A stretch of DNA of 60,713 bases from a candidate division WOR-3 bacterium (GCA_030592285.1 JAUVJU010000001.1:1-60713); one strand, 5' to 3'; shown: positions 23,890 through 37,839, counted from the stretch's first letter. Numbers and translations: made by a program. The notes: generated by a model not told the origin, from the letters alone.

Positions 23890-23915
23890 AAAAAAGGGGA
23901 GAAAAGATTCTCCCC
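23890..23915 (-). terminator. rho-independent terminator after the aldehyde dehydrogenase gene
   Basis: The minus strand reads GGGGAGAA-TCTT-TTCTCCCC followed by TTTTTT, starting 5 nt after the TAG stop. Confidence 0.65.
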
Positions 23916-23920
23916 TTTTT

Positions 23921-25417
23921 CTATTTTTCAATACTTGTATCAATTTGTGCTTTTTGAAGTTTTCCGGAATAATCAATATATACCGTTTTCTGTTCAGTAT
24001 ATATTTCATAAACAGTCCATCCGCCTTCTCTATGTCCATTACCTGTTGATTTAACTCCACCAAAAGGCATATGACATTCCGCACCAATAGTTGGACCATT
24101 AATATAGGTAATACCTGAATCAATATCCTCAACAGCATGCATTGCATTATTAATGTTTTTTGTGTATATGCATGAAGATAAACCATATTGAACATCATTA
24201 ATAACCTCAATTGCTTCATCAAATGATTTTACTTTAATAATTGAAAGAACAGGACCAAATATCTCTTCCTGTTCAAGTCGTGAAAATGGTTTTACATTTG
24301 TAAATATTGTAGGTCTATAGAACCATCCACCTGCACATTCACCCTCTTTATACTGCTCGCCGCCTGTAATTAATGTTGCACCCTCTTTCTTTCCAATTTC
24401 CGTATAGGAATGTATCTTTTTCAAGGCAGATTCATTAATAACCGGTCCAAGATCAGTATCTTCATTCCATGGCATTCCTATTTTCATTTTCTCTGCTCTG
24501 TTTTTTAATTTTTCAACAAATTCATCATGAACGGCTTCATGAATAATTATTCTTGAAGTTGCAGTACATCTTTGACCTGCTGTTCCAAATGCACCAAATA
24601 ATGCTCCATCAACTGCAAGATCAATATCCGCATCATCCATAACAATTTGTGCATTTTTACCACCAAGTTCCAATGATACCTTTTTCAAACTCTGTCCTGC
24701 AACTGATGCAATATGCTTGCCTACCTCTGATGAACCGGTAAATGAAATAACTCCAATATCAGGATTTTCCAAAATCGCATTCCCAACAGCAGAACCTGGA
24801 CCATTAACCAAATTAATTACTCCATCAGGAATACCTGCTTCAATCATTATATCAAATAGTTTGGCTACCATTAATGGTGTATCTGATGCAGGTTTAATAA
24901 CAAGTGTGTTTCCTGAAAGTAATGCAGGAAACATTTTCCATGTTGGAATTGCAACGGGAAAATTCCAAGGACATATCATTCCTGCAACACCTATTGGTCT
25001 TAAAAATGTCATATTTATTTTATTGGGCAATTCTGATGGGGATGTTTTTCCAAAGAATCTTCTACCTTCACCAAATGCATAATAGGCAGTATCTATACCT
25101 TCCTGAACATCGCCTCTTGATTCACTAATGATCTTACCCATTTCTTTTGCCATTAATTGTGCAAGTTCCTCTTTCCTTTCAACCATTATGTCCCCTACTT
25201 TTCCAAGTAGTTCTCCTCTCTTTGCTACAGGGACCTTTTTCCATTTTTTAAATGCTTTTTTCGCTGCTTTTACTGCTTCATCAACATCTTCCTTGTCTGA
25301 TTTTGCAACTACTGCTAATACTTCATTCCACTTTGCCGGCATACGGGTCTCAAATGTATCACCACTTTTTGCATCAACCCATTTTCCATTAATAAAATTC
25401 TTTATTGTTTCTGCCAT
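23921..25417 (-). CDS. NAD(P)-dependent aldehyde dehydrogenase family protein
   Basis: Motifs SLELGGKNAQIV, catalytic Cys in GQRCTATSR and EEIFGPV. 498 aa. Confidence 0.9.
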   Translation of the reverse strand: MAETIKNFINGKWVDAKSGDTFETRMPAKWNEVLAVVAKSDKEDVDEAVKAAKKAFKKWKKVPVAKRGELLGKVGDIMVERKEELAQLMAKEMGKIISESRGDVQEGIDTAYYAFGEGRRFFGKTSPSELPNKINMTFLRPIGVAGMICPWNFPVAIPTWKMFPALLSGNTLVIKPASDTPLMVAKLFDIMIEAGIPDGVINLVNGPGSAVGNAILENPDIGVISFTGSSEVGKHIASVAGQSLKKVSLELGGKNAQIVMDDADIDLAVDGALFGAFGTAGQRCTATSRIIIHEAVHDEFVEKLKNRAEKMKIGMPWNEDTDLGPVINESALKKIHSYTEIGKKEGATLITGGEQYKEGECAGGWFYRPTIFTNVKPFSRLEQEEIFGPVLSIIKVKSFDEAIEVINDVQYGLSSCIYTKNINNAMHAVEDIDSGITYINGPTIGAECHMPFGGVKSTGNGHREGGWTVYEIYTEQKTVYIDYSGKLQKAQIDTSIEK

Positions 25418-25433: not shown

Positions 25434-26354
25434 TTACTTAAATGTTTTTAATAGTTTTTCCATATTCAGATCTGGAGGAAATGCTTCCTCAAATAATGTT
25501 ACTGATTCCGAAGTATATGATCTAATATTACTAATATCATCAAGTGTAAGTACAATTTTCTCATAGGATGATAATTCTCCATAACCCTTAAATACTATTG
25601 TATGATTCCCGGGTGATTCTACTGCCTTTCTCATTCCTTTTCCATCATATCCACCCAAAATAATATCTATGCCCTCTATCTTATCAGCCAATGAAAAATC
25701 ATGATCCAAACCAATTGATGTTAATCCTATAATAATATCACATTTATTCTGTTTTAATATATTAACAAGTGCCTCTGCTGTTTTAATTTCCTTTTCAATT
25801 TTAACTGTTTTTAATATATGTTTTCTTAGATCAAAAACAGAATATTCCGTTGTAAGTCCAAATATCCCAATCTTAACACCCTTTTCTTCAATAATAATAT
25901 AATCCTTAAGCCCAATATCACTATCAATGAAATCAATGTTTGACATAAGAACAGGCATATTGAAATTAGCAAAATTCTTTTCAATAAATTTTGCTCCTGA
26001 TGATATCTCATCAATACCAAGATTCACAGCATCATATTTTAATTCATTAAAAACCGTAATTGCCCTACTTAATGAAACAGAATCATGTTCAATATGTTTA
26101 ATTGCAAAATTACCGGAATCAAAGAGAAGTAAAATATTTCCATCTTTCTGTGCCTCTTCTCTTTCCCATTTAATTGCCGTAGCAAATGAATACACTCCAC
26201 CAAGCATTGGAGGGAAATCCGGATTTATAAAGGTTGCACCCCTTGATTGAAAAACATCCTTTATATCATTTGTATGCAAAATTATAACTTTCATTGAAAA
26301 AACAGGTATTACTATTGAAATCATTAATATTATTACAAATATTCTCTTAATCAT
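25434..26354 (-). CDS. secreted calcineurin-like metallophosphatase / 5'-nucleotidase N-domain homologue with degenerate metal-binding motifs
   Basis: Signal peptide. ILHTNDIKDV, LLFDSGNF and NLGIDEIS align to the UshA-type motifs HTND.HG, D.GD and GNHEF but lack the second His, the bridging Asp and the Asn-His. Confidence 0.55.
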   Translation of the reverse strand: MIKRIFVIILMISIVIPVFSMKVIILHTNDIKDVFQSRGATFINPDFPPMLGGVYSFATAIKWEREEAQKDGNILLLFDSGNFAIKHIEHDSVSLSRAITVFNELKYDAVNLGIDEISSGAKFIEKNFANFNMPVLMSNIDFIDSDIGLKDYIIIEEKGVKIGIFGLTTEYSVFDLRKHILKTVKIEKEIKTAEALVNILKQNKCDIIIGLTSIGLDHDFSLADKIEGIDIILGGYDGKGMRKAVESPGNHTIVFKGYGELSSYEKIVLTLDDISNIRSYTSESVTLFEEAFPPDLNMEKLLKTFK

Positions 26355-26363
26355 AAAAAACTC

Positions 26364-26951
26364 CTATTTAATAACTGTTATTTTTGAAAATGATTTTGAC
26401 ATAATATAATCAAAATATTTTTCATATTCAAGAGCAATACCAATAGACCTAATTATTACTGAACATTCATTGTTCTTATCCAAAGCCCAATAACTCCAGT
26501 TGGTAGAGCCGACAATGGTGTAAAGAGAATCAATGATAAGTGTTTTACTATGTACAGTCTCATCAGGATCATCATAATAGACATCAATGCCGCCGCTTCT
26601 TAAAAATTCACCAAGTGCAAGATTTCCATATGATTGACCAGGATTATAGCCCGCCTGATCAAGTACTATTTGAACCTCAACACCTCTATTAACTGCATCA
26701 AATAACACTTGATACATTTGTCTATTAACACCGCTGGGATAATTGGGATAATAACCGCCTGACAGCATAAATATATGGATTGTCTTTTCAGCATTTCTAA
26801 AGAGTTTTATTGCATTAGGTGTGTAATCCCTGTTATTAATCGGATAAACACCATCAGCATCCATATATTCAATATCATTTTCAATGGTTATATCTGCAAA
26901 TAATATAACTGCTAATAATGAAATAATTGAAATTATTATTATCTTTTTCAT
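26364..26951 (-). CDS. secreted single-HKD phospholipase D superfamily protein (Nuc-like)
   Basis: Signal peptide, and one intact HxK(x)4D(x)6GSxN motif: HSKTLIIDSLYTIVGSTN. About 195 aa. Confidence 0.8.
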   Translation of the reverse strand: MKKIIIISIISLLAVILFADITIENDIEYMDADGVYPINNRDYTPNAIKLFRNAEKTIHIFMLSGGYYPNYPSGVNRQMYQVLFDAVNRGVEVQIVLDQAGYNPGQSYGNLALGEFLRSGGIDVYYDDPDETVHSKTLIIDSLYTIVGSTNWSYWALDKNNECSVIIRSIGIALEYEKYFDYIMSKSFSKITVIK

Positions 26952-26961
26952 ATGTTTCTCC

Positions 26962-27540
26962 TTACCTTGGGATAGTCAATTCTACAGTAGAAAATTCAAG
27001 AAGACGATGAAAATAATCAACATAATCAAGAGCAAGCTTTTCAGATTTTACAATAACTGCGGATTCATTGTTTTTCTCAAATGCATAAAAACTCCAATTA
27101 GTTGAACCAATAACAGTATAAAGAGAATCCACAATAACAACCTTTGTATGCGTTGTTTTATCTGCCGGGTCAAAATATACTTCAACACCATTTGCTTTCA
27201 TATATTCGGCAAATTGTTCATTTTTCAGTGTTGATGATACATTCCATGATGATTGATCTACAATGATCTGCACCTTTACATCCCTTTCGGCTGCTCTAAT
27301 CAATGCTTTATACATTTGCCTATTAACACCATCAGGGTATTTTTCATAATACCTTACCTGATAGATCATTGCCTGAATACTATTTTCTGCACTATCAAAG
27401 AGTTTTATCATATTAGGCACATAATCCGTTTTATTAATCACAGCAATACCTTCGGTATCATAAAAAGGAACAATATCCTCGCATATAATTAATGTAAATG
27501 CACCTAAGAGAAGTATAATTATGAACAATGGTTTTTTCAT
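26962..27540 (-). CDS. secreted single-HKD phospholipase D superfamily protein (Nuc-like), paralogue of 26364..26951
   Basis: HTKVVIVDSLYTVIGSTN. Shares blocks with its neighbour along the full length (YP.GVNRQMY, V.VQI..DQ, VDSLYT..GSTNWS). Confidence 0.8.
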   Translation of the reverse strand: MKKPLFIIILLLGAFTLIICEDIVPFYDTEGIAVINKTDYVPNMIKLFDSAENSIQAMIYQVRYYEKYPDGVNRQMYKALIRAAERDVKVQIIVDQSSWNVSSTLKNEQFAEYMKANGVEVYFDPADKTTHTKVVIVDSLYTVIGSTNWSFYAFEKNNESAVIVKSEKLALDYVDYFHRLLEFSTVELTIPR

Positions 27541-27554
27541 ATTTACCTCCCTTG

Positions 27555-28718
27555 TTAAAATGTCATTGAAACATCAAAATTCATTTTTATATATCTATTT
27601 TTATATATAATACTATTATTTTCATATTCATTCTGAATATATTGAGTAGATAAAACAAAATCAATATTATTAATCTCATATACTGCACCTGCTGTAAAAC
27701 CAGCATCCACAACATGATTGTTTTTCCTATATGGTTCATATATGACTCCATATAATGTAGTGAAATCCTTTGTCATTTTATGTTCAATACCTATATGATA
27801 CTTAATAACATCATTATATTCCATATATTCACCATTAAGTTCCGACCATCTTTCATAAATTGCTTCAGCAAGTAATGAAACAGGTCTTAGATTAATAGGG
27901 GTATATTTAATACCCAATCCAAATATGGAAGGTATAAAACCATCCTGCCTATCTGCTGTAGAGATCGTATCAGATGCAATTATATCAATAGATCTTTCGC
28001 TTATCACAATTGTAGGTAAATGGTAAAAGACAGTTGCACTTAATCTATCAATATAATTATAAGATAAAGCAAAACCGCCTTTTAAACCCGAGTACTGTTC
28101 ACTAATACTCAGCATTGAATCTGTTTCTGATGGATCAACATATACAATATTGGATTTTGTTGAGGCATCTCCTTGAAGAATAGAAAAATTGCCGCCCAAG
28201 GTAAAACCCATTAAATTAAATGATGCAGAAATAAAATATGAATTTATATTCCCTTCAATGGAATAATTATCAGTATAAAGTGTTACATAGTAAGCATCCC
28301 TGAATATTTTATTATAATTGTAGTCCCTGCTATACAAATTTTCATATCCAATATATACACCAAAATTTGAGAGAGGTATATATGCACCAATAAAATATGG
28401 TTCTCCATAATAATATGAATTATCATATAATGTTTTTTCCCCAATATTATTATCATAAGAATCAAATATATATTGAGATCTTGATTCCCTGTAGTTCATT
28501 GCTCCAAATCCAATTCTGATATTATATTGCCCTCCATATAATTGCAGAGAAGGATTTATAATCGGATCTGCAATAAAGCACACATTCCCCATTCCTCCGG
28601 AATATGCACTTATTGGAGATACTATGTCACCAATTATCTCCTCTGAATTCATAAAGCCATAACTAAATACAAAAAGAGCCATTATTAAAGTTAATGCAAT
28701 GAAAAAAAGTTTTTTCAT
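27555..28718 (-). CDS. outer-membrane beta-barrel protein (PorV/FadL-like?)
   Basis: Signal peptide MKKLFFIALTLIMALFVFS, with ATG 28718 preceded by GGAGGA. Tyr/Gly-rich alternating strands, C-terminal ...DVSMTF. N-terminal GGMGNVCFIADPIINPS motif. Confidence 0.55.
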   Translation of the reverse strand: MKKLFFIALTLIMALFVFSYGFMNSEEIIGDIVSPISAYSGGMGNVCFIADPIINPSLQLYGGQYNIRIGFGAMNYRESRSQYIFDSYDNNIGEKTLYDNSYYYGEPYFIGAYIPLSNFGVYIGYENLYSRDYNYNKIFRDAYYVTLYTDNYSIEGNINSYFISASFNLMGFTLGGNFSILQGDASTKSNIVYVDPSETDSMLSISEQYSGLKGGFALSYNYIDRLSATVFYHLPTIVISERSIDIIASDTISTADRQDGFIPSIFGLGIKYTPINLRPVSLLAEAIYERWSELNGEYMEYNDVIKYHIGIEHKMTKDFTTLYGVIYEPYRKNNHVVDAGFTAGAVYEINNIDFVLSTQYIQNEYENNSIIYKNRYIKMNFDVSMTF

Positions 28719-28726
28719 TTTTCCTC

Positions 28727-31144
28727 CTACCATCTTATATCAAGCTGCATTGACAGATTGAATATTTGTTTATAATCAGCAAAATCTCTTATTAACATAA
28801 AATCACCGTTTTCATATCTATATTCACTTTCAGGATTATAGATCCCATACATTGGTATATCCTGATTTTTCATAGATGCTTTTGCTCTAATAGAAACATT
28901 TTTGGAAACACGGTCTATCATTGTAATGTAATATTTTAAGCCATCTCCATAGAGAAAGTCAATTCCAGTATCTTCAAATATCCATTGACTCATTCCATCC
29001 GTTTTCCATGCTGCTATACCACCCAAAACCGAGAAGTAATCAGTAATTCTATGTTCAAATGAACCATTTACATATGTTCCATCAATAATATTATCTTCTT
29101 TAAATTTTAGTGATGTTGTTAAATTAACCCTGCCATACCGAGCTTCAAAATTAAGATAATTATTATTACTTAATATGGTAAATATCCTTAGCGTTGTTTC
29201 ATTAGTAAAAGAATGTGTAGAGACCACACTTTTATACAGATTTTTCTCCTGAATTTTCTGTTTCAATCTAATTCTTATAGGAAATACAGGTCTATATTCA
29301 ATTTCTCCCTGAAATCTATAATTGTGTAAATTATAATCCATTGTTTTCCATATATCAATATATGCTTTTGTAATTGTTAATTTCTCAGAAATACGAAAAC
29401 GAGTTTCACAATATATACCCTCTTCGGGTTTTGGTCTTGGATCATCGGTAATCATTGTCAAAATAGGATCAATCAATCTATATTCTTTTTCAAAAGCAGT
29501 ATCATCAAATCTATTCTGTTCCGATAATGGTCTTGCATAAGGATTATCAAATCCTACATCATAATGCCTGAATATTGTTTTAAGATAAAAATTATTAAAT
29601 ATCATATCAGACCGTAGAATATAAGCATAAGCATTATTTTGTTTTGCTATTTCTCCTTCAAAAGATATATTCCTGAAATCTGTTCTGAAATCACAACTAA
29701 AAACATCTCTTACATTACCTGTAAAACCATCAGTATAGACCGGTGTAGAAATATTATCTTTATCATATGGAATATCTAGTACAAGTGTATCTCTAATAAT
29801 ATGCTTATCATAAGCAGATCTAAAACCACTAACTCCAATTTCCGTTGATAAAGGTAAGCCAAAAACATTTCCAAGATCAAATGCTAATCTTCCACCAAAT
29901 AATCGTTCATTCACATTCTCCGAAAATTCTTCAATAAATGTGTTTTGTAGAAGAAGAATATTGACCGAACCATCAGGATTCAAGATTGCATTTCTATTAT
30001 CAGAGCTTCCAAAGGCAAGGAAATTCATTCTTCCAATATTTCCATTAAAGGATAAACCCGTTAATTTAGTACTATAATTTTGTGTTACATCAGGAAATAA
30101 ACCCTTAATAATATCAAATCTTCTTGCTCTATATTCATTAGAGTTGTCCATTAATAATCCCTGTCCAATACTAACTCTATAATTTCCAAAAAAGATATTT
30201 TCAATAAAACCCAGATTTGTGAAATTAACATATCCCTTATATTTGTATTCTTCCTTACCTGCAAATTTTGTTAAGACACCGCCTGCATTAATATAATTCC
30301 CAAATCTGAAGCGTAATTTACTGGAAATATCACCATCCTTTTCCAAGCTGTCAAGCTGCAGAACCTCACTTAACATTCTCAATCTTATATTTCCAATATC
30401 CTGCTCACTCATTCCAGCATCAAGAAGTAGATCCCTGGTATTTGAGGTTCCCGGTGGAGCAATTTCTAATTCATCTACTGCACTTATAATAGAATATTTA
30501 AGACCTGTATAAGATATATAATTATAAGTATCATCATTTGACATATCAAGATTTGTTCTAAAATAACCTGAGAATTTCCAATCATCATTATCATTATATG
30601 CAATATAATTTCTTAATCTTGTCCAAGAATAATGTGTTAATCCGGGTGAGCGTCTTATTTGATTATCATATGAAAAATCCCCAAGAAGATTTCTACTATT
30701 TAATATTGCAACTGCATCTGTTATATTTACACCCTGTATTAATAAAAGATCATTTATTGTTGCATTATTTATATTCATTTTATTGATAAGCATATCTTCC
30801 CATACATCCATAGCACCCTGTGTTGGTGATTCTTCAGATGCTAATCGTTCTTGCAGCCGTACAATATATATTGAGGTTTTGTCAAGAGTAGTATCGGGAT
30901 AAATTGAAATTTTTCGTTTTAGAATATCAAATATTTCCGCATCAACTCCCTCTATTTTATTAAGTTCGTAAATACTCTTTAATTCCCCATGTTCAAAAAC
31001 ATACTGTTTTATGTTTTTTATAACTTCATCAGGAATCATTAGAGTATCAATAGCATCAAGAGACATATTATTAATATCAATCTTTTCTGCAAATACAGGT
31101 AATAAAAGTATTAATAATATGAAAACTGTTAATATTCTCTTCAT
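28727..31144 (-). CDS. envelope protein: two ComEA-type helix-hairpin-helix modules fused to a large beta-barrel-like region
   Basis: Signal peptide. HhH module 1: IDINNMSLDAIDTLMIPDEVIKNIKQYVFEHGELKSIYELNKIEGVDAEIFDILKRKI. HhH module 2: MNINNATINDLLLIQGVNITDAVAILNSRNLLGDF. The remaining ~600 aa are rich in alternating aromatic strands and end LDIRW. Confidence 0.6.
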   Translation of the reverse strand: MKRILTVFILLILLLPVFAEKIDINNMSLDAIDTLMIPDEVIKNIKQYVFEHGELKSIYELNKIEGVDAEIFDILKRKISIYPDTTLDKTSIYIVRLQERLASEESPTQGAMDVWEDMLINKMNINNATINDLLLIQGVNITDAVAILNSRNLLGDFSYDNQIRRSPGLTHYSWTRLRNYIAYNDNDDWKFSGYFRTNLDMSNDDTYNYISYTGLKYSIISAVDELEIAPPGTSNTRDLLLDAGMSEQDIGNIRLRMLSEVLQLDSLEKDGDISSKLRFRFGNYINAGGVLTKFAGKEEYKYKGYVNFTNLGFIENIFFGNYRVSIGQGLLMDNSNEYRARRFDIIKGLFPDVTQNYSTKLTGLSFNGNIGRMNFLAFGSSDNRNAILNPDGSVNILLLQNTFIEEFSENVNERLFGGRLAFDLGNVFGLPLSTEIGVSGFRSAYDKHIIRDTLVLDIPYDKDNISTPVYTDGFTGNVRDVFSCDFRTDFRNISFEGEIAKQNNAYAYILRSDMIFNNFYLKTIFRHYDVGFDNPYARPLSEQNRFDDTAFEKEYRLIDPILTMITDDPRPKPEEGIYCETRFRISEKLTITKAYIDIWKTMDYNLHNYRFQGEIEYRPVFPIRIRLKQKIQEKNLYKSVVSTHSFTNETTLRIFTILSNNNYLNFEARYGRVNLTTSLKFKEDNIIDGTYVNGSFEHRITDYFSVLGGIAAWKTDGMSQWIFEDTGIDFLYGDGLKYYITMIDRVSKNVSIRAKASMKNQDIPMYGIYNPESEYRYENGDFMLIRDFADYKQIFNLSMQLDIRW

Positions 31145-31152
31145 AAATCACC

Positions 31153-32016
31153 TCAGAAGTTATAATTTAATTGTATTAAATGTATGCCATTTACATATTG
31201 ATTTGCAGAGTATCCATAATCAATTGAAAATTTATTCAATATAATCTCAAACCCGCCGGAATATTCTATTGGGAATGATCTTACTCCACATCTTACAATG
31301 AAAACATCCTCCACAATTTCATAATTCACCGCACTGCCAAATGAAGTTGGCCAGCCAGCACTTTTAGAAACATCAAAAGATGTAATAAAATTATCATATG
31401 GTTCAAATGATATGCCTGCATTAACCACTCTCTCAATGTAATATCTATTTGAAGTCATAATTCCTGCAATATACGAGTTTGTAATATTTTTTACTGCAAT
31501 CCCCAAATTCCATCTTTTATAAATTGTTCCAATAAGCCCCATATCTACTGTATAGTAAATATTACTTCCATTATCAATCTGCTCTAAGTACAAAAGATTA
31601 ATATTGGTTCCGAAACTTAAAACATTTGCAAGTGGAATGCCGTATGTTATATTAACTATTCTCTCTGTATGCATCCTTGTTCCTGTTGAGATAATTGAAT
31701 CACTATTAGCATAATCACCAAGAACAAAATACTCGCTGAATTTTGCTCCCATAACGCCATACTGTGTCATATACGAGCCAGATAAGGCAAATGAATGTGT
31801 AAATCCATAAAGATTTTCATAGGATAATGATATATCTGAAATATTTGTTGCAGTTATTGATGCCGGATTGATCATTGCATTTTCAATTCCCATTAATAGT
31901 GAACTTGTGCAATACCTCATTGATTTTACTTTCACATTACCGGGTATATATTCAAATGCTGCAAATGACAATAAGGCAAAAAGAATAAGTGTGATAGTTA
32001 TTATATTTTTTTTCAT
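31153..32016 (-). CDS. outer-membrane beta-barrel protein (PorQ/PorP-like?)
   Basis: Signal peptide, LLMGIENAMINPASI motif, alternating strands, C-terminal ...QLNYNF. Confidence 0.5.
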   Translation of the reverse strand: MKKNIITITLILFALLSFAAFEYIPGNVKVKSMRYCTSSLLMGIENAMINPASITATNISDISLSYENLYGFTHSFALSGSYMTQYGVMGAKFSEYFVLGDYANSDSIISTGTRMHTERIVNITYGIPLANVLSFGTNINLLYLEQIDNGSNIYYTVDMGLIGTIYKRWNLGIAVKNITNSYIAGIMTSNRYYIERVVNAGISFEPYDNFITSFDVSKSAGWPTSFGSAVNYEIVEDVFIVRCGVRSFPIEYSGGFEIILNKFSIDYGYSANQYVNGIHLIQLNYNF

Positions 32017-32028
32017 ATTTGACCCCTA

Positions 32029-34020
32029 TCAGTTCAAAACAGTTGTAACAATAATTGGTTTTATTATTCTGATTACTTTTCCACCAAAAGTAATCTTCTC
32101 AACAACAAGTATATAGGAAGCAATATTCACAGGTGCACCGGCATGATTTTTCCCATCCCAGATAATTGTAGTTGAACCCGGAACATTTTCAGCAATGACC
32201 TTTATTAATCTCCCATTCATATCAAATATTCTTGCTGTTATTCGTTCATTATTAAGACATTCAATTTCAATTCTTGCTGTCTCTCCTCTTTCAAATGATA
32301 CTGGATTTGGAAAAACAGCCACAGATAATGTTGAGTCCTCCTCATTCTCTACAAGTTCAATGTCTTCCATAAAACGAACAAGTAATTGATAACCTGATGA
32401 GTATGGTTCCTCAGTATCATACTGTCCTCCAATACCTATTACATTAATAAGTAAACCTGGCTTTATTGTCTTCATTAGATTACTATTAAAAAGATCTGTT
32501 TTTTCATCTGCTCTTACATCAATAATTGTCTGCCCATTAAGTATCTGGAAGTTTTTGCCGCTTCCCAAAGTAACGGGAGCAGTTATTACCTTTCCATACT
32601 GCACTTCAAGCAGAGAACCCTCATTAAGTTCATTAACACCCTGCGAATTTATCAAGACCTTTGGTTCAACAATAGCTAAAGTGTCATTAATGATCATAAT
32701 ATCTGTTTCAGGTGAAGAGTATTTAACCTCGGTTAAACCATTATACTCTTCAACCGTACCTGTTATTAGTAATTCCATACCCAATTTGAAATTACTATTC
32801 ATTGCATCATTACCAGAATATATATTCACTCCTCCTGTTCCATCCTGAATATAAAATCCCGTTGAAGTTGATGTTGGAGAAAATATAGAGGATGGTCCTG
32901 TTACAATACCCTTAATTGTTACACTTTCATTTAAATAAATTGATTTATATCCATCAGTTGTTTTCTGCACCTCTTCTATATTTGTAATTTCAATATCCGG
33001 CATTATATTAATTATTGGAAATTCATTAATATATGCAAAATATGAAGGCGACAAGCCCGTGTAAACAGTAAATGTATCAGGTCCATCAAAATATAGTTTT
33101 TCAACATATACTGATATTGTATCAATTAAATGAGCATCATAAATATCAAATGTGATTCTGCTATTTAAAGAATCCTTATTAATAATCATAGAATCAACAT
33201 TACTGATAATATTTACCGAATCCATTAACGAATCAACATCAAATCTTACCCTGACAAAATCTATCACACCATAAGTACTGTCAACAGTTGGAAAAATATC
33301 AATACGGAAATTAACAAGTTCATTATTATCACAATACTTAGGATTTATTCTTGCTCCTCCACTGCCATCAAGGGATTTGAGAATGTCTTTATCACTAGAT
33401 GGCATGATCTTAAAATCACCATAATCATAGTCCACCACTCCTGTAAGAAAAATCAAACTATCTCCAATTACAGGTGTATAGGAATATTCTGCATAATCGC
33501 TTTCAGTTGCCCAGCATTCACCACTGCCATCATCAATTTCCCAATCCCCATATCTATCCTGAGTTGATACAACTCCTACATTTTCTACAATTACAAGAAC
33601 ACCTTCATATTTTTCTTTGGCAGTGTCAGGTACACTTTCACCCAAAGCAGCAGTGCTTATATTTATAGGAGCAGGCAGAATGTTATTTGAGGAATGAACA
33701 GTATAGTCCGATATATCCTTTATTTCCGTTTTATTATAGTACTCAGTAACAAGTCCTGTTACTGTTATATAATCACCTTCATTAAATCCACTGCCAAGAC
33801 TAAATAACTGTATTCCACTCCATTCAAATATGCCGAATGTATCCTGAATAAAAACATCTGTCCCATAAACCCGGGTTATAATCCCCGATACAGTTACTGT
33901 TTGATCAATATACGGAGAATCACCTGATGAGTCCTCTGTATATTGTATATCTCTTATAGTTAATGAAAAAAGAGATAATGCAGTTAGAAATATCAATGTT
34001 GTTATAACAATTGATTTCAT
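32029..34020 (-). CDS. surface protein with two ExeM/NucH-type OB-fold modules, no nuclease domain, and a T9SS/FlgD-Ig-like C-terminal tail
   Basis: OB module 1: TIRDIQYTEDSSGDSPYIDQTVTVSGIITRVYGTDVFIQD...GDYITVTGLVTEYYNKTEI. OB module 2: SVTIKGIVTG...GFYIQDGTGGVNIYS...LLITGTVEEYNGLTEV. Tail: VFPNPVSFERGE...ARIFDMNGRLIKVI...WDGKNHAG. The start overlaps the rpoN stop (ATGA). Confidence 0.7.
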   Translation of the reverse strand: MKSIVITTLIFLTALSLFSLTIRDIQYTEDSSGDSPYIDQTVTVSGIITRVYGTDVFIQDTFGIFEWSGIQLFSLGSGFNEGDYITVTGLVTEYYNKTEIKDISDYTVHSSNNILPAPINISTAALGESVPDTAKEKYEGVLVIVENVGVVSTQDRYGDWEIDDGSGECWATESDYAEYSYTPVIGDSLIFLTGVVDYDYGDFKIMPSSDKDILKSLDGSGGARINPKYCDNNELVNFRIDIFPTVDSTYGVIDFVRVRFDVDSLMDSVNIISNVDSMIINKDSLNSRITFDIYDAHLIDTISVYVEKLYFDGPDTFTVYTGLSPSYFAYINEFPIINIMPDIEITNIEEVQKTTDGYKSIYLNESVTIKGIVTGPSSIFSPTSTSTGFYIQDGTGGVNIYSGNDAMNSNFKLGMELLITGTVEEYNGLTEVKYSSPETDIMIINDTLAIVEPKVLINSQGVNELNEGSLLEVQYGKVITAPVTLGSGKNFQILNGQTIIDVRADEKTDLFNSNLMKTIKPGLLINVIGIGGQYDTEEPYSSGYQLLVRFMEDIELVENEEDSTLSVAVFPNPVSFERGETARIEIECLNNERITARIFDMNGRLIKVIAENVPGSTTIIWDGKNHAGAPVNIASYILVVEKITFGGKVIRIIKPIIVTTVLN

Positions 34021-35459
34021 TCTACCTCCTTAAAGTATTTTTTTCTCTTACTTGCAGGCAATATATCCATTATTTCGCGATATTTTGCCACTGTTCTTCT
34101 TGCAATCATAATTTTATATTGATCTTTTAGAATATCTACAATTCTCTGATCAGTCAATGGTGTTCTTTGATTTTCTTTTTCAATCACCTTTTTAATTATA
34201 TCCTTAACATTTGTTGATGATGTATTACCTTCTTCTGTTAATATTGAGCGGGAAAAGAAAAACTTGAATGGGAATATACCCTTTGCCGTATCAATGTATT
34301 TTCTATAAGTTGCTCTTGAAACCGTTGATTCATGAATCCCCAAATAGTTAGAAATGTCCTGTAATACCATAGGTTTTAAGGCGGAAATACCAAAATGAAA
34401 AAATTCCTTTTGAAGCATAATTATCCGTTCAGAAATATTAAGTAATGTTTTATTCCTTTTATTAATACCAGAAACAAGAAAAATTGCACTATTTAAGCGT
34501 TTTTTAAGAAATTTTTCTTCCTTTTTGGTCAATTTATTCTTCCCCTGCAATATATCAAGGTATCTTTTATTTAAATGAACCTCTGGAAAATAATTGCTGT
34601 TTATTTCAGGAATAAATTCATCTCCCTGCTTTCTCACTAAAATATCCGGTACAATATAATTAGATGACTTGCCCCATTCACCGTTTGCCGGTTTAGGATT
34701 AAGTTTCTTTATATCCTCAATTGCAATTTTAAATTCATCATTGCTAATATCTATTTTATTCGAAATTCTATACATTTTATTTTTAAGAAAATCATCATAA
34801 AAATCATTGATAATTGTAAATGCAAAAGTATCTGTCATTTTTTTATATTTAAGTTGTGTTAGAAAACATTCTCTAACATTCCTGCTCCCTACTCCTATAG
34901 GGTCTAATAATCTGATTCTATCCAAAATATTTTCAAAATTTTTATGAGTAATATTAAATGTCTTAATAATTACATTTTCAATGTTTTCCTCTTCATTTTC
35001 ATGATCTACTTTCAGAAAACCATCATCTGAAAGGGATGTTACAATAAATTCGGCAACTTCCATTTCAAGATGATTTCCAAATTTTATATGAACCTGTGTT
35101 AATAAATGCTGCTTAAAACTTATTGGCTCGGAATATATATCAACAGGATTAAAGTTTTCATGTTCTTTTTTCTTTTTTGAAAAATCAATGCCAGGTTTTT
35201 TCCAATCATCATGGTAAAAATATTCAAAATCAATTTCATCCTTTTTATCTGATTTAGATTCCTCTTTCTCCTTGATTGTAGTTTCAGATTCATCATCATC
35301 TTCAGACATTTCTTCTTCAAGAAATGGATTCTGTTCAATTTCATGCCTGATTAATTGTTGCAGTTCAAGACGCGGCATTTGCAAGATTTTCAACAATTCT
35401 AATAATTGCGGGCTAAGTATCTGCTCCAATTTGTTTTGTAATGACTGTGAGTGCTTCAT
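34017..35459 (-). CDS. rpoN: RNA polymerase sigma-54 factor
   Basis: RpoN box ARRTVAKYRE, HTH LGIHESTVSRA, acidic region II. Confidence 0.92.
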   Translation of the reverse strand: MKHSQSLQNKLEQILSPQLLELLKILQMPRLELQQLIRHEIEQNPFLEEEMSEDDDESETTIKEKEESKSDKKDEIDFEYFYHDDWKKPGIDFSKKKKEHENFNPVDIYSEPISFKQHLLTQVHIKFGNHLEMEVAEFIVTSLSDDGFLKVDHENEEENIENVIIKTFNITHKNFENILDRIRLLDPIGVGSRNVRECFLTQLKYKKMTDTFAFTIINDFYDDFLKNKMYRISNKIDISNDEFKIAIEDIKKLNPKPANGEWGKSSNYIVPDILVRKQGDEFIPEINSNYFPEVHLNKRYLDILQGKNKLTKKEEKFLKKRLNSAIFLVSGINKRNKTLLNISERIIMLQKEFFHFGISALKPMVLQDISNYLGIHESTVSRATYRKYIDTAKGIFPFKFFFSRSILTEEGNTSSTNVKDIIKKVIEKENQRTPLTDQRIVDILKDQYKIMIARRTVAKYREIMDILPASKRKKYFKEVE

Positions 35460-36175
35460 ATTCTAAATTTGTCTCCAAGATATAATTCTCTTGCTTTATC
35501 GCTTTTTATAAGTTCTTCGGCAGTTCCTGTTATAAGCAAATTGCCTTCATATATTATATGGGCAATATCAATTATTTCAAGGGTTTCCCTTACATTATGA
35601 TCTGTTATAATTACTCCAATATTATCTGATGCAAGTTCTCTTATAATACCCTGAATATCCTGTCTAACTTTTGGATCAATTCCTGTAAATGGTTCATCCA
35701 AAAGAAGAAAGGAAGGATTCACTGTTAATGCACGGGCAATTTCAACTCTTCTTCGTTCACCTCCTGATAATTTTGATGATTTTCTTTTCCTTAAATGCCC
35801 TATTTTCAATCTTTCAAGAAGAGATTCTTCTCTCCTTTTTTGTTCTTTCTCTGAAATACCAATCATTTGCAATATTGCCATTAAATTATCTTCAACACTT
35901 AAATTCCTGAAAACAGATGATTCTTGAGGTAAATATCCAATTCCTCTTCTTGATCTTTTGTACATTGGTTCATTTGTTATATTAATATCATCAAAATAAA
36001 TATTCCCGCCATCTGAATTTATCATACCTGTTATCATGTAAAATGTTGTTGTCTTTCCTGCTCCATTTGGACCCAATAAGCCCACTACTGAACCTGTTTC
36101 AACAACTATATTCAGGTCATTTACTACTTTTTTATTCCCATAACTTTTACTCAGATTATCTGCTTTTAATTTCAT
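35456..36175 (-). CDS. lptB: LPS export ABC transporter ATP-binding protein
   Basis: Walker A GPNGAGKTT, signature LSGGERRRVEIAR, Walker B LLLDEP. Lies directly upstream of rpoN. Confidence 0.9.
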   Translation of the reverse strand: MKLKADNLSKSYGNKKVVNDLNIVVETGSVVGLLGPNGAGKTTTFYMITGMINSDGGNIYFDDINITNEPMYKRSRRGIGYLPQESSVFRNLSVEDNLMAILQMIGISEKEQKRREESLLERLKIGHLRKRKSSKLSGGERRRVEIARALTVNPSFLLLDEPFTGIDPKVRQDIQGIIRELASDNIGVIITDHNVRETLEIIDIAHIIYEGNLLITGTAEELIKSDKARELYLGDKFRI

Positions 36176-36431: not shown

Positions 36432-37349
36432 CTATTCAACATTTTTTTCAATATCATCTTCTTCTTTTCCTTTTATTATTAATTTTGCATTATTAATCTC
36501 TTTAAATTGTATTTCATTGATTTTTCCATTATCAAAAGTAATTATCATCTCATTACATGAAAGTTCATTTGTTCTATCATCATTTTCTCCAAAAAATACA
36601 ATATTTTCAAACATATTTGCTGATACCAATGAATCATTACGGATATATGCATATAGGGTATCTCCGTTAATATTGTAATCCGTGCTAACAATTGTATTAT
36701 TAAAAGGTGATATCATATAATCAAGATTGGTATAATTAGCAATTGAATCAGTATAAAGAACAAACTCATCTCCTTCTATAGTAACAGAATCAATGAAAAA
36801 TTCAAATGAATCAGGATTATTTCTTACAAACAATCCGGCATTTATGGTAAAATCACCATTAATACTAATCAAATTTACATTATTTATTGCTTTCAAATAA
36901 TCTTCTCTTCTGTCAATTATTAAAGTATCAGATTTCAATTCCTCTCCTCCATTAAAATTTGCTGTTAGATTATTATAGAAAATATGTAAACTATCCTTAA
37001 CAAATATTTCTGCAATATCAGAATATATAATTGATGCATCAGTTTCTGTTTTTTGATTATTTAAAATAAAATGTTTTTCTTTAATACTATAGTATCCTTT
37101 CTCTGCATTTACTTTAAGAGAATCTCCACTTGTCAGAATAAATTCTACAGGCATTATAACAATTGAATCATTTCTTAGCATATATGCTGAATCAATTATC
37201 AGATGATATGAACCACTTTTCAAACTTACTCCTTCATACATAAATACACTATCACCCTTTATCACTGTCCTATTTGATTCCAATACATAACCATTAATTA
37301 AAACAGGTATTATTAATATGCATAATAAGAAATATTGTATTTTATTCAT
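36432..37349 (-). CDS. OstA/LptA-like periplasmic protein (tentative)
   Basis: Signal peptide, beta-rich repetitive sequence, positioned between the LptC-like gene and lptB. Confidence 0.4.
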   Translation of the reverse strand: MNKIQYFLLCILIIPVLINGYVLESNRTVIKGDSVFMYEGVSLKSGSYHLIIDSAYMLRNDSIVIMPVEFILTSGDSLKVNAEKGYYSIKEKHFILNNQKTETDASIIYSDIAEIFVKDSLHIFYNNLTANFNGGEELKSDTLIIDRREDYLKAINNVNLISINGDFTINAGLFVRNNPDSFEFFIDSVTIEGDEFVLYTDSIANYTNLDYMISPFNNTIVSTDYNINGDTLYAYIRNDSLVSANMFENIVFFGENDDRTNELSCNEMIITFDNGKINEIQFKEINNAKLIIKGKEEDDIEKNVE

Positions 37350-37839
37350 TATACATAATTAGCGGGTTTATAAATTCAATCTTAAGAAAATCCATATCAC
37401 TAATAAATCCTTTTGTTTTCATTATATCATTTAACTTTTTAATTAGCAATGAATCATAACATTGCACAATATTACTATCAGGATATAAATAGAGTCGTGC
37501 AGTATATAGAATCATTGAATCCTCCATATGCACTCTTACATTTCCGGAAAATATCAAAGTATTATTGATTTTGATCAAAGAATCTGATAAAAGCCGTATA
37601 TCTGTACTATCATTCTGCCGTATATAATCTATTCCCATCATAATTAAGGAATCATCAAATACAATTATAGTATCCGCATTTAAGGAATAATCAGGAATGG
37701 AGTCCCTGAATGCATCAATTTCTGCATTAATAATTATATCTCTTTTTTGCTCATTTCCTGCTTTATCGGTAAATCCCGAACATGATATTAGAAATAAACT
37801 AAATAGAAATATCTTTCCATATTTTATTATAAAAGTCAT
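37342..37839 (-). CDS. LptC-like protein (tentative; has a lipobox LISC)
   Basis: 165 aa with an N-terminal anchor. Assigned from its position upstream of the LptA-like gene; no strong motif. Confidence 0.3.
   Translation of the reverse strand: MTFIIKYGKIFLFSLFLISCSGFTDKAGNEQKRDIIINAEIDAFRDSIPDYSLNADTIIVFDDSLIMMGIDYIRQNDSTDIRLLSDSLIKINNTLIFSGNVRVHMEDSMILYTARLYLYPDSNIVQCYDSLLIKKLNDIMKTKGFISDMDFLKIEFINPLIMYNE

What the first reader, a model, noticed from the sequence alone, without database searches (positions are those of the whole stretch)
25434..34020. rpoN-coupled envelope gene cluster combining DNA-binding modules, Nuc-type PLD nucleases and three beta-barrels: candidate extracellular-DNA capture/processing system
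Seven minus-strand genes sit directly behind rpoN with only 8-16 nt spacers. The first starts in an ATGA overlap with the rpoN stop (34017-34020), and its AGGAGG lies inside the rpoN 3' end. The block is therefore probably co-transcribed with lptB-rpoN, in the place where hpf/ptsN-type genes usually follow. Its content is: (i) 32029..34020, a surface protein with two ExeM/NucH-type OB-fold modules, no nuclease domain and a T9SS-type tail; (ii) 31153..32016 and 27555..28718, beta-barrels with an N-terminal G.G...NP(A/S) motif reminiscent of PorV/PorQ/FadL proteins; (iii) 28727..31144, tandem ComEA-type HhH modules fused to a large barrel-like region; (iv) two secreted single-HKD Nuc-like PLD paralogues; (v) a secreted metallophosphatase homologue with degenerate metal ligands. 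Each part belongs to a known family, but I do not recognise a described system with this combination. DNA binding (OB, HhH), cleavage (HKD) and membrane transit (barrels) co-localise in one apparent operon. The function is inference only. An alternative reading is a T9SS cargo-attachment module next to unrelated lipid-active PLD enzymes.
Basis: partly seen in the sequence, partly recalled or inferred. Interest (0 to 1): 0.8.

Follow-up and report, generated by a model that had tools for sequence, protein, structure and literature searches.

The report
Candidate outer-membrane DNA uptake and degradation locus
Seven genes behind rpoN in an uncultured WOR-3-type bacterium look like an uncharacterised machine that catches DNA at the cell surface, passes it through a new kind of outer-membrane barrel and cuts it up. 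Its core is conserved across many uncultured phyla related to Bacteroidota, but no function has been tested.

Summary

Comparative analysis changes the emphasis. The conserved unit is not "rpoN plus PLD". It is a core B-C-D-G, often preceded by A, found in about 70 loci labelled WOR-3, TA06, Edwardsbacteria, Cloacimonadota, Krumholzibacteriota, Gemmatimonadota, Eisenbacteria and Zixibacteriota.
- A is a surface protein with two HIN-like tandem-OB modules, one of which is DUF5689.
- B is a remote PorV/PorQ relative.
- C is a roughly 24-strand barrel of no known family, carrying two ComEA-type HhH modules that are inferred to be periplasmic.
- D is a remote BamG/FadL relative.
- G is an UshA-type 5'-nucleotidase.

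Linkage to rpoN and to the aldehyde dehydrogenase exists only in the window's own clade.

PLD genes occur only where G is truncated and has lost its metal ligands. This suggests the PLD enzymes took over catalysis, in one or two evolutionary events.

The closest described systems are the Bacteroides ddbABCDEF DNA-utilisation locus and the Riemerella natural-transformation genes. Both use DUF5689, an outer-membrane barrel and (in Riemerella) a periplasmic HhH protein. Their barrel is TonB-dependent; this one is not.

Function remains inference. I rate it a new variant of a known kind, interest about 0.68.

The parts
35456..36175 (-). lptB (ABC ATPase). Upstream neighbour; overlaps rpoN by 4 nt.
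   Evidence: ABC_tran 125 bits; 4-nt overlap. The same neighbour is present in the close clade only.
34017..35459 (-). rpoN (sigma-54). Its stop overlaps the start of gene A (ATGA).
   Evidence: TIGR02395 381 bits; sequence at the junction.
32029..34020 (-). A: secreted 663-aa protein. It has two tandem-OB (HIN-like) modules at about residues 20-215 and 345-555 (the second is DUF5689), an Ig-like middle region, and a C-terminal Ig/T9SS-type tail. Inferred role: cell-surface dsDNA receptor.
   Evidence: PF01336 35.2 bits, DUF5689 31.7 bits, ExeM/NucH N-terminal region 59 bits. AF2 model pLDDT 85.5. Foldseek top hits are p204 HINab-dsDNA, p202 HIN1 and MNDA HIN-dsDNA. No nuclease domain in it or in 10 homologues.
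31153..32016 (-). B: 287-aa outer-membrane barrel, a remote PorV/PorQ-family relative. Inferred role: docking platform for A through its C-terminal domain.
   Evidence: 17 of 18 family members hit NF033709 (best 7e-26). The family profile hits PorV 6h3i_F at 3.3e-8. Scores are 38-62 bits in the three members scanned with the cut-off shown (window protein 22.1 bits to PorQ only) against a cut-off of 90. B lies directly upstream of C in 58 loci.
28727..31144 (-). C: 805-aa protein and signature gene of the system. Signal peptide, two ComEA-type HhH modules, then a large barrel of no known family.
   Evidence: HHH_3 48.7 bits. AF2 model pLDDT 72, pTM 0.68. Foldseek gives only generic large barrels, TM 0.35 or less. 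129 representatives at E<=1e-30 among 1.84 billion proteins.
30602..31093 (-). C residues about 18-181: tandem HhH (ComEA/EEPD1-like) non-specific DNA-binding modules. Inferred to be periplasmic.
   Evidence: The family profile hits EEPD1 9yi2 at 1.3e-13 and ComEA 8dfk/8dss; TIGR00426 34 bits. Orientation is inferred from the even strand count and the short turns after even-numbered strands.
28730..30574 (-). C residues about 191-805: roughly 24 beta-strands with a helical insert (212-265) after strand 1. Candidate outer-membrane conduit.
   Evidence: DSSP of the model. No Pfam, NCBIfam or PDB-sequence relative for this region.
27555..28718 (-). D: 387-aa FadL-type barrel, a paralogue of B and nearest to Bacteroidota BamG and TodX. 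Inferred role: scaffold or platform beside C.
   Evidence: The B-family HMM hits D proteins at 1e-7 to 1e-54. The D profile hits BamG chains 9hiv_F at 7.5e-16 and 9n2d_B at 1.9e-9. 10 of 16 members hit NF053685, at 54-86 bits against a cut-off of 250. The window protein itself has no hit.
26962..27540 (-). E: secreted single-HKD PLD-superfamily phosphodiesterase (192 aa).
   Evidence: PLDc_2 87 bits. Best single-sequence PDB hit is Nuc 1byr, 2.5e-8. HxKxxxxD, GSxNW and the first Asn and the Glu of the NNE motif are invariant in 18 homologues.
26364..26951 (-). F: paralogue of E (43% identity), also with an intact HKD motif. A possible heterodimer partner.
   Evidence: PLDc_2 81 bits; alignment A6. 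Both copies are present in all 14 loci of the window's clade.
25434..26354 (-). G: 306-aa secreted remnant of an UshA/CD73-type 5'-nucleotidase. It keeps the N-domain only and has lost its metal ligands, but is conserved like its neighbours.
   Evidence: PDB 6xuq at 1.5e-11. Motifs read NDIKD, GN, GIDE, TS and GGY where the family has NDxHG, GD, GNHE, H and GGH. 50-65% identity to orthologues, the same as the other cluster genes.
23921..25417 (-). Aldehyde dehydrogenase. Last co-oriented gene (16-nt gap). Linked only in the close clade and probably not part of the system.
   Evidence: Aldedh 585 bits; gap; distribution.
23898..23915 (-). Hairpin followed by a T-run. Likely end of the transcription unit.
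   Evidence: Terminator scan, 7-bp stem then CCTTTTTTCC.

Best explanation
This is an envelope system for capturing, importing and degrading extracellular nucleic acid. It is the counterpart, in FCB candidate phyla, of the Bacteroidota DNA-utilisation (ddb) and Riemerella DNA-uptake genes.

Shown by computation:
- the domain identities;
- the conserved B-C-D-G(+A) order;
- the degenerate G together with intact PLDs;
- the HIN-like fold of A.

Inferred mechanism:
1. A is exported (probably by the T9SS through its C-terminal domain) and held on the PorV-like barrel B. Its two HIN-like tandem-OB modules bind dsDNA at the cell surface.
2. DNA, or fragments of it, passes through the roughly 24-strand barrel C. 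D flanks C in the way BamG flanks BamA.
3. The two ComEA-type HhH modules at the periplasmic N-terminus of C grip the incoming DNA and bias its movement inward, acting as a tethered ratchet without TonB or a pilus.
4. Sec-exported phosphoesterases then degrade it. In most lineages this is an intact UshA-type 5'-nucleotidase (G).
5. In the window's lineage, Nuc-type PLD phosphodiesterases (E and F, possibly a heterodimer) do the hydrolysis. G survives as a non-catalytic subunit.
6. Products are imported for nutrition. Some lineages place a UgpB-like ABC importer next to the cluster.

Co-transcription with lptB-rpoN is a local gene-order feature.
For: - Four unrelated nucleic-acid-associated families sit in one tightly packed block.
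- A carries DUF5689 above the Pfam cut-off. Its model matches HIN-dsDNA complexes best (5z7d at 2.6e-8, also 4l5q and 8i6k). This is the same likeness reported for DdbD.
- In Riemerella, a DUF5689 protein, an outer-membrane barrel and a periplasmic HhH protein are each essential for transformation. In B. thetaiotaomicron, the ddb locus is required for DNA depletion.
- C's HhH region matches ComEA and EEPD1.
- The core order is conserved in about 70 loci from eight or more phylum labels, independent of rpoN.
- G is full-length with intact motifs in 30 of 32 PLD-less loci. It is short and ligand-dead in all 22 PLD-bearing loci.
- A UgpB-like ABC importer adjoins the cluster in 7 loci from 3 clades, either upstream or downstream.
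- RecJ lies close downstream of G in 11 loci, directly after it in most.
- Relatives of A's OB module occur fused to EEP nuclease domains. Sources name them extracellular nucleases or YhcR.
Against: - Nothing here is experimental.
- The barrel of C matches no known transporter, and whether DNA could pass through it is unknown.
- In PLD-less loci the only adjacent enzyme is a nucleotidase, which cannot cut polymeric DNA. A nuclease would have to be encoded elsewhere.
- The PLD family's best PDB profile hit is labelled 'Phospholipase', and ClsB is the top NCBIfam hit for E.
- The PLD gain with G decay reflects only one or two evolutionary events.
- B and D fall well below curated family cut-offs.
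- The window's A fails the T9SS tail cut-off.
- The adjacent ABC importer is of the sugar / glycerol-phosphate type, not a known nucleoside importer.
- All homologues come from metagenome bins; several bins carry taxon labels that look doubtful, and no named homologue or locus title comes from a cultured isolate.
Confidence: 0.55

Rival explanations
1. It is an outer-membrane DNA-uptake machine for natural transformation, as in Riemerella anatipestifer, rather than a feeding system. A binds DNA, C with its HhH modules brings dsDNA into the periplasm, and ComEC (encoded elsewhere) takes one strand into the cell. The hydrolases would trim or dispose of the other strand.
For: The three modules essential in Riemerella (a DUF5689 protein, an outer-membrane barrel and a periplasmic HhH protein) are all represented. 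RecJ lies close downstream of G in 11 loci. JGI names C-family proteins 'DNA uptake protein ComE-like'.
Against: Hydrolases are constant members of the cluster, either a nucleotidase or PLDs. An ABC importer is linked in several clades. No comEC, dprA or comF was seen in any flank. The two uses are not mutually exclusive, as the ddb authors note.
Confidence: 0.15
2. A with B (and D) is a T9SS cargo-attachment module. The PLDs and G are unrelated lipid- or nucleotide-active periplasmic enzymes that happen to sit in an LPS/envelope operon.
For: B is PorV/PorQ-like. A-family proteins carry T9SS C-terminal domains. The PLD profile's top PDB hit is a phospholipase, and ClsB is the top NCBIfam hit for E. 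The block follows a lipid A acyltransferase and lptB.
Against: The B-C-D-G order is conserved in phyla where no lpt or rpoN gene is nearby. This reading does not explain C's ComEA-type modules or A's HIN-like fold. It also does not explain why PLD presence tracks the decay of the nucleotidase. Single-HKD proteins of about 170 residues after signal-peptide cleavage have the Nuc/NucT/Zucchini architecture, not that of two-HKD lipid enzymes.
Confidence: 0.1
3. It is a cell-surface eDNA adhesion or matrix-remodelling device, or a DNA exporter. A and C would tether the cell to an extracellular DNA matrix, and the hydrolases would remodel that matrix, with no import.
For: Non-specific DNA-binding modules are present in two envelope proteins. 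Extracellular nucleases of the ExeM/NucH type act in biofilm remodelling (my own knowledge, not tested here).
Against: The HhH modules are inferred to lie on the periplasmic side. The hydrolases carry plain Sec signals with no conserved lipobox or C-terminal sorting domain, which suggests the periplasm. An ABC importer is linked in several clades.
Confidence: 0.08
4. It is an outer-membrane biogenesis accessory. D would be a BamG-type subunit and B-C-D a barrel-assembly or lipid/LPS-handling complex encoded with lpt genes.
For: D's nearest solved relatives are BamG chains. BamG and BamH are reported across most FCB phyla. The window's cluster follows lptB and an acyltransferase.
Against: D scores 54-86 bits against a BamG cut-off of 250, and the window's D has no hit at all. 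No BamA, BamD or POTRA element lies in any flank. The lpt linkage exists only in one clade. The DNA-binding and nucleotidase modules have no role in such a model.
Confidence: 0.05

Closest known systems
Bacteroides thetaiotaomicron ddbABCDEF DNA-utilisation locus (bioRxiv 10.1101/2025.03.18.642099)
   Same: Both are PUL-like loci that combine a DUF5689 protein with a HIN/p202-like fold, an outer-membrane barrel and Sec/SPI-type secreted phosphodiesterases. The ddb locus is genetically required for depletion of exogenous DNA.
   Different: The ddb barrel (DdbC) is a TonB-dependent transporter. C has no TBDT, plug or CarboxypepD_reg signature, and instead carries fused ComEA-type modules. Ddb proteins are lipoproteins, while A has a T9SS-type tail. 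Ddb has no PorV/BamG-like barrels, no UshA-type enzyme and no PLD enzymes. Whether the Ddb nucleases are related to E/F was not tested, because no sequences were available.
Riemerella anatipestifer natural-transformation genes RA0C_RS04920, RS04915 and RS02645 (PMC8459023)
   Same: The same three functional modules are present: a surface DUF5689 protein, an outer-membrane barrel and a periplasmic HhH DNA-binding protein. Each is essential for transformation in Riemerella.
   Different: In Riemerella the HhH protein is a separate gene at another locus, and the barrel is TBDT-like. Here the HhH modules are fused to a barrel of a different, unknown family, and hydrolases are always present.
ComEA, the periplasmic DNA receptor and ratchet of competence systems
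   Same: C residues 18-181 match HHH_3 and ComEA structures. They are inferred to be periplasmic.
   Different: ComEA is a small soluble or inner-membrane-anchored protein that works with a PilQ secretin and pilus. Here two such modules are part of an outer-membrane barrel. The TIGR01259 score is 36.7 bits against a cut-off of 152.
PorV/PorQ (T9SS) and BamG (Bacteroidota BAM): FadL-type 'platform' barrels
   Same: B and D are 14-strand-class FadL-type barrels with the N-terminal NPA/NPS motif. Known members hold surface proteins: PorV holds cargo C-terminal domains and BamG holds BamH.
   Different: Both fall well below the curated cut-offs. Both are always paired with C, not with SprA or BamA.
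Nuc (pKM101), NucT and Zucchini: single-HKD PLD-superfamily nucleases
   Same: E and F have one HKD motif, about 170 residues after signal-peptide cleavage, and a signal peptide. Their nearest solved relatives include Nuc, NucT and MitoPLD/Zucchini.
   Different: They are two diverged paralogues in tandem (43% identity). They score below all NucT equivalog cut-offs. Their substrate is untested, and a 'Phospholipase' entry (7e0m) scores marginally higher against the family profile.
ExeM/NucH and YhcR extracellular nucleases
   Same: They share the N-terminal OB region (59-66 bits to NF033681) and, in homologues, LTD/Big domains. YhcR-type proteins combine OB folds with an UshA-type esterase (that last point is my own knowledge). 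JGI names A's relatives in this way.
   Different: Neither A nor any of 10 homologues examined contains a nuclease domain. Here the OB, nucleotidase and nuclease functions are separate genes.

Membership tests
Ddb-type / Riemerella-type outer-membrane DNA uptake system | Surface protein with a DUF5689 (HIN/p202-like) domain | tested here: met
   PF18942 scores 31.7 bits against a cut-off of 28.6 and covers 4-217 of 217 model positions. The Foldseek top hits are HIN-dsDNA complexes.
Ddb-type / Riemerella-type outer-membrane DNA uptake system | TonB-dependent (SusC/TBDT-like) barrel adjacent to the DUF5689 gene | tested here: not met
   C has no TBDT, plug or CarboxypepD_reg hit in Pfam or NCBIfam. 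TM-scores to TBDTs are 0.34 or less, no better than to ushers. No TBDT gene lies in the cluster.
Ddb-type / Riemerella-type outer-membrane DNA uptake system | Periplasmic HhH DNA-binding component | tested here: met
   HHH_3 scores 48.7 bits and the region matches ComEA and EEPD1. It is present as a fusion to the barrel. Its periplasmic location is inferred, not shown.
Ddb-type / Riemerella-type outer-membrane DNA uptake system | Locus required for DNA depletion or transformation | not testable with these tools
   This needs genetics or biochemistry. All carriers are uncultured.
ComEA | Curated comEA model (TIGR01259) and the architecture of a small stand-alone protein | tested here: not met
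   36.7 bits against a cut-off of 152. The protein is 805 aa with a barrel of about 615 aa.
PorV/PorQ family (gene B) | NF033709 score above the curated cut-off | tested here: not met
   Homologues score 38-62 bits against a cut-off of 90. The window protein hits only PorQ, at 22 bits. Remote homology is nonetheless clear (17 of 18 members hit; PorV 6h3i_F at 3.3e-8).
BamG (gene D) | NF053685 score above the cut-off, and association with BamA/BamH | tested here: not met
   Homologues score 54-86 bits against a cut-off of 250, and the window protein has no hit. No bamA or bamH gene lies in any flank.
Nuc/NucT single-HKD nucleases (genes E, F) | Single HxKxxxxD motif, small secreted protein | tested here: met
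   The motif is invariant in 18 homologues. The proteins are 192 and 195 aa with signal peptides.
Nuc/NucT single-HKD nucleases (genes E, F) | Curated NucT models; grouping with nucleases rather than lipid enzymes; nuclease activity | tested here: inconclusive
   NucT models score 31-49 bits against cut-offs of 211-351. Against the PDB, the family profile scores 'Phospholipase' 7e0m at 53.5, Nuc at 51.3, Zucchini at 43 and NucT at 42.6 bits. Activity cannot be tested here.
UshA/CD73 5'-nucleotidase (gene G) | Dimetal ligand motifs (NDxHG, GD, GNHE/D, H, GxH) and the C-terminal substrate-binding domain | tested here: not met
   The window's G reads NDIKD, GN, GIDE, TS and GGY, and ends at 306 aa. 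Orthologues in PLD-less loci meet both features.
ExeM/NucH extracellular endonuclease (gene A) | Endonuclease/exonuclease/phosphatase catalytic domain; NF033681 above the cut-off | tested here: not met
   59 bits against a cut-off of 300, with only model positions 43-120 matched. No EEP domain is present.
T9SS type A cargo (gene A) | C-terminal sorting domain, TIGR04183 / PF18962 | tested here: inconclusive
   The window's A scores 16.4 bits against a cut-off of 23. Its homologue in L072 scores 39.4 bits, and many relatives carry PF18962. Whether the genome has T9SS core genes could not be checked.

The most novel reading that the evidence does not exclude
C and its two FadL-type partner barrels would form a previously unknown class of outer-membrane nucleic-acid translocon. 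It would be independent of type IV pili/secretins and of TonB. Uptake would be driven by ComEA-type ratchet modules covalently tethered to the channel and by periplasmic hydrolysis. It would be used by many uncultured FCB-group phyla to feed on, or be transformed by, environmental DNA.
Probability: 0.3. Interest if true: 0.85.

Novelty: new variant of a known kind. Interest (0 to 1): 0.68.

Why it matters
- Extracellular DNA is a large pool of phosphorus, nitrogen and carbon in sediments and digesters. The phyla that carry this locus (WOR-3, Krumholzibacteriota, Cloacimonadota and others) live there but are uncultured.
- How DNA crosses the outer membrane without a pilus or secretin became a tractable question only recently, with the Riemerella and Bacteroides ddb work. 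Both of those systems use TonB-dependent barrels.
- A conserved second solution would widen the known ways bacteria take up DNA. This one would use a new barrel family with built-in ComEA-type modules and PorV/BamG-like partner barrels.
- It would also give a genomic marker for DNA scavenging in these lineages.
- Finally, it may offer a natural example of one phosphoesterase family (PLD) displacing another (UshA-type) while the dead enzyme is kept as a subunit.

Tried and rejected
- **Sigma-54 promoter scan** (TGGCAC-N5-TTGC, up to 2 mismatches): 35 matches against 26.4 +/- 5.3 expected, and none well placed. There is no evidence for sigma-54 control.
- **Promoter and terminator scans inside the block:** no better than shuffles. 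Only the hairpin after the aldehyde dehydrogenase is convincing.
- **Anti-phage defence reading:** PADLOC gives only generic PLD-to-DrmC/Mko similarity for E and F and nothing for the other five proteins. All seven are secreted. Rejected.
- **E as a surface lipoprotein** (TLIIC|ED): the Cys is not conserved in any homologue outside the near-identical L003 copy. Dropped.
- **C as a known barrel class:** Foldseek and profile searches give only generic matches to AlgE, ushers, TBDTs and MtrB.
- **A as a nuclease:** no catalytic domain in 10 homologues.
- **Treating the PLD / dead-G correlation as 22 independent observations:** the C tree shows only one or two transitions.
- **ClpX-like and RlmI-like genes downstream in some clades:** judged to be housekeeping neighbours.
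- **Looking for a cultured carrier or a published description:** only metagenome bins and generic names were found.
It was redone with database homologues.

Full report
**1. The observation**

The window is AT-rich (about 30% GC), and nearly all its genes are on the minus strand. The gene order is lptB (35456-36175), rpoN (34017-35459), then seven ORFs at exactly the coordinates given.

- rpoN is unambiguous (TIGR02395, 381 bits).
- Its stop overlaps the start of gene A in ATGA, with AGGAGG 7 nt upstream.
- The next junctions are 12, 8, 8, 14, 10 and 9 nt, each with a Shine-Dalgarno-like motif.
An aldehyde dehydrogenase (23921-25417) follows after 16 nt, and the only convincing hairpin plus T-run is at 23898-23915.
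- Promoter-like and terminator-like hits inside the block are no more frequent than in shuffled sequence.

Co-transcription from lptB-rpoN to the dehydrogenase is therefore plausible but unproven.

**2. The seven proteins**

*A (663 aa).* It scores PF01336 OB 35.2 bits, DUF5689 31.7 bits (cut-off 28.6, full-length match) and ExeM/NucH N-terminal region 59 bits. Its FlgD_ig and T9SS-tail hits are weak.
- An AF2 model (pLDDT 85.5) shows two tandem-OB modules separated by Ig-like domains, with a C-terminal Ig-like domain.
- Its best PDB matches are HIN-200 domains bound to dsDNA: p204 HINab 5z7d (E = 2.6e-8), p202 HIN1, MNDA and p204 HINb.
- Ten homologues add Big_5, lamin-tail or clear T9SS C-terminal domains. 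None has a nuclease domain.

*B (287 aa).* It belongs to a family in which 17 of 18 members hit the PorV/PorQ family model (best 7e-26). The family profile finds PorV 6h3i_F at 3.3e-8.

*D (387 aa).* It is a paralogue of B: the B-family HMM hits D proteins at 1e-7 to 1e-54. Its nearest solved relatives are Bacteroidota BamG chains and TodX. Both B and D are far below curated cut-offs, so they are remote relatives and not members.

*C (805 aa).* It has two HHH_3 modules (48.7 bits) that match ComEA and the tandem HhH of EEPD1.
- These are followed by about 24 predicted strands, with short turns after even-numbered strands and long loops after odd-numbered ones.
- That is the usual outer-membrane topology. 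It places the N-terminal HhH modules in the periplasm. This orientation is an inference.
- The barrel has no sequence relative in Pfam, NCBIfam or the PDB. It shows only generic fold similarity (TM 0.35 or less) to AlgE, ushers, TBDTs and MtrB.

*E and F.* They are 43% identical single-HKD PLD-superfamily proteins. HxKxxxxD, GSxNW and the first Asn and the Glu of the NNE motif are invariant in all 18 homologues.

*G (306 aa).* It is the N-domain of a CD73/UshA-type 5'-nucleotidase (6xuq, 1.5e-11). Five metal-ligand positions are replaced, and the C-terminal domain is missing.

All seven proteins have Sec-type signal peptides. The one candidate lipobox, in E, is not conserved.

**3. Comparative genomics**

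Close homologues of C are named candidate division WOR-3. A scan of one genome per GTDB species returned 79 loci. I called ORFs in all loci and searched them with the window's proteins and with iterated family HMMs.

- *Full order.* The complete order lptB-rpoN-A-B-C-D-E-F-G-ALDH is found only in about 12 loci of the window's own clade (C identity 49-92%).
- *Core order.* B-C-D-G recurs in bins labelled WOR-3, TA06, Edwardsbacteria, Cloacimonadota, Krumholzibacteriota, Gemmatimonadota, Eisenbacteria, Zixibacteriota and 'Fibrobacteraceae'. An A-type gene lies directly upstream, or sometimes downstream, in many of them.
- *Labels.* Some taxon labels are evidently unreliable (section 8).
- *Minimal forms.* One WOR-3 subclade keeps only B-C next to each other. 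The most distant locus (L002) keeps only A-B-C.
- *Family size.* An exhaustive HMMER search of 1.84 billion representative proteins finds only 129 at E<=1e-30, about 100 of which cover the barrel. The family is small but phylogenetically wide. It carries only generic names such as 'helix-hairpin-helix domain-containing protein' and 'DNA uptake protein ComE-like'.

**4. The PLD and nucleotidase pattern**

I compared 55 G homologues.
- All 22 loci with a PLD gene have a short G (274-308 aa where the ORF is complete) that lacks the dimetal motifs.
- 30 of 32 loci without a PLD gene have a G of 500-590 aa with intact NDxHG, GD, GNHD/E, H and GxH motifs. They give strong UshA/CpdB-type hits (176-225 bits).
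- L026 and L027 are partly degenerate.

A neighbour-joining tree of C shows that PLD-bearing loci form one large clade plus one separate pair. The pattern therefore reflects one or two events, not 22.

The dead G is as conserved as rpoN and its neighbours (50-65% identity), so it is retained for a non-catalytic role. The simplest reading is that PLD phosphodiesterases displaced the catalytic role of the ancestral nucleotidase.

**5. Other recurrent neighbours**

- A UgpB-like ABC importer (two permeases plus a binding protein, sometimes a MalK-type ATPase) adjoins the cluster in seven loci from three clades. It lies either upstream of A or directly downstream of G.
- RecJ, without a signal peptide, lies close downstream of G in 11 loci.
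- ClpX-like and RlmI-like neighbours look like housekeeping genes.

**6. What is known**

- DUF5689 appears in only three papers of the held library.
- In B. thetaiotaomicron, DdbD (DUF5689) is the predicted DNA-binding partner of the TonB-dependent transporter DdbC. Its model resembles p202. The ddbABCDEF locus, with three active nucleases, is required for DNA depletion and nucleobase release.
- In Riemerella anatipestifer, a DUF5689 protein, its neighbouring outer-membrane barrel and a separate periplasmic HhH protein are each essential for natural transformation.
- The window's cluster has the same three functional modules. However, its barrel is of another, unknown family, and the HhH modules are fused to it.
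- FadL-type barrels serve as platforms for surface proteins in the T9SS (PorV, PorQ) and in the Bacteroidota BAM complex, where BamG holds BamH beside BamA. This gives a precedent for the inferred roles of B and D.
- I found no description of this cluster.

**7. Interpretation**

The best-supported reading (confidence about 0.55) is a nucleic-acid capture, uptake and degradation system. Surface capture would be by A docked on B. Passage would be through C, flanked by D. The tethered ComEA-type modules would hold the DNA in the periplasm. Hydrolysis would be by G, or in this lineage by E/F, followed by import of the products.

Shown: domain identities, folds, motif states and synteny. Inferred: localisation, complex formation, the substrate and the direction of transport.

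Weak points:
- No enzyme able to cut polymeric DNA is adjacent in PLD-less loci.
- The PLD substrate is unresolved: the family profile scores 'Phospholipase' 7e0m at 53.5 bits and Nuc at 51.3 bits.
- The linked ABC importer is not of a known nucleoside type.
- Nothing is experimental.

The rivals are transformation rather than feeding, a T9SS attachment module with unrelated lipid enzymes, matrix adhesion or DNA export, and outer-membrane biogenesis. Each is weighed in its own section. The defence reading is rejected, and no sigma-54 promoter signal was found.

**8. Verdict**

- The system's core is B-C-D-G(+A).
- Linkage to rpoN, and the PLD genes, are lineage-specific.
- A described analogue exists, but it has a different transporter.

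I class it as a new variant of a known kind (outer-membrane DNA uptake/utilisation loci of the FCB group), with interest 0.68.

Caveat on labels: L004 ('Bacteroidales') and L012 ('Acetofilamentum') carry the full WOR-3-type arrangement. L074 ('Fibrobacter') is nearly identical to L078 ('Gemmatimonas'). Taxonomic breadth should therefore be read at the level of FCB-group candidate phyla.

Noticed in passing
window 36432-38599: Between the lipid A acyltransferase-like gene (37799-38599; Pfam hit seen on the L001 orthologue) and lptB lie two ORFs of 165 and 305 aa. This is where lptC and lptA usually sit, yet neither ORF has any Pfam hit. They may be very divergent LptC/LptA proteins in this lineage.
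   Followed up: partly
window 15662-17671 (+): This 669-aa ORF is one of very few plus-strand genes in a window that is almost entirely minus-strand. It coincides with the only positive GC-skew bin (16001-18000) and has no Pfam hit.
   Followed up: partly
window 43321-49933: A signalling module is present. It comprises a 1337-aa PAS/GAF histidine kinase (45920-49933), a response regulator with an HD_5 (HD-GYP-like) domain (44437-45939), and a divergently oriented GGDEF diguanylate cyclase (43321-44472). This suggests cyclic-di-GMP control.
   Followed up: partly
L021, L035, L046, L071, L080 (upstream of A); L028, L041 (downstream of G): A UgpB-like ABC importer (two permeases plus a binding protein) is linked to the cluster in three separate clades, in two different positions. 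Its substrate is unknown, and it is not of a known nucleoside-importer type.
   Followed up: partly
L021:17376-18923, L037:15040-16662 and nine other loci: A RecJ-type single-strand DNA exonuclease (TIGR00644, 238-332 bits; no signal peptide) lies close downstream of the nucleotidase gene in 11 loci (directly after it in the WOR-3 subclade; one or two genes further in L021, L035 and L046). It could be chance synteny or a cytoplasmic step in handling imported DNA.
   Followed up: partly
L027:7693-9195 and L026:13500-15494: These two G orthologues are full-length but have partly degenerate metal-ligand motifs, and no PLD gene is adjacent. They could be intermediates in the loss of catalysis.
   Followed up: no
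L004, L012, L074 vs L078 (record titles): The taxon labels of several metagenome bins look wrong. Bins labelled 'Bacteroidales' and 'Acetofilamentum' carry the full WOR-3-type arrangement. A 'Fibrobacter sp.' contig is nearly identical to a 'Gemmatimonas sp.' contig in the C tree.
   Followed up: partly
L021, L035, L046, L063 (downstream of G): The Edwardsbacteria-type loci carry a second, shorter A-like gene with a FlgD_ig/T9SS-type tail and, in most of them, a second PorV-like barrel gene (detected by the B-family HMM in all four; called as a gene in the curated maps of L021 and L035) right after G. This looks like a duplicated cargo-plus-platform pair.
   Followed up: no
window 28727-31144, C residues 212-265: In the model, a three-helix insert sits between the first and second barrel strands. 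It could be a plug or an extra DNA-binding element. It was not analysed further.
   Followed up: no
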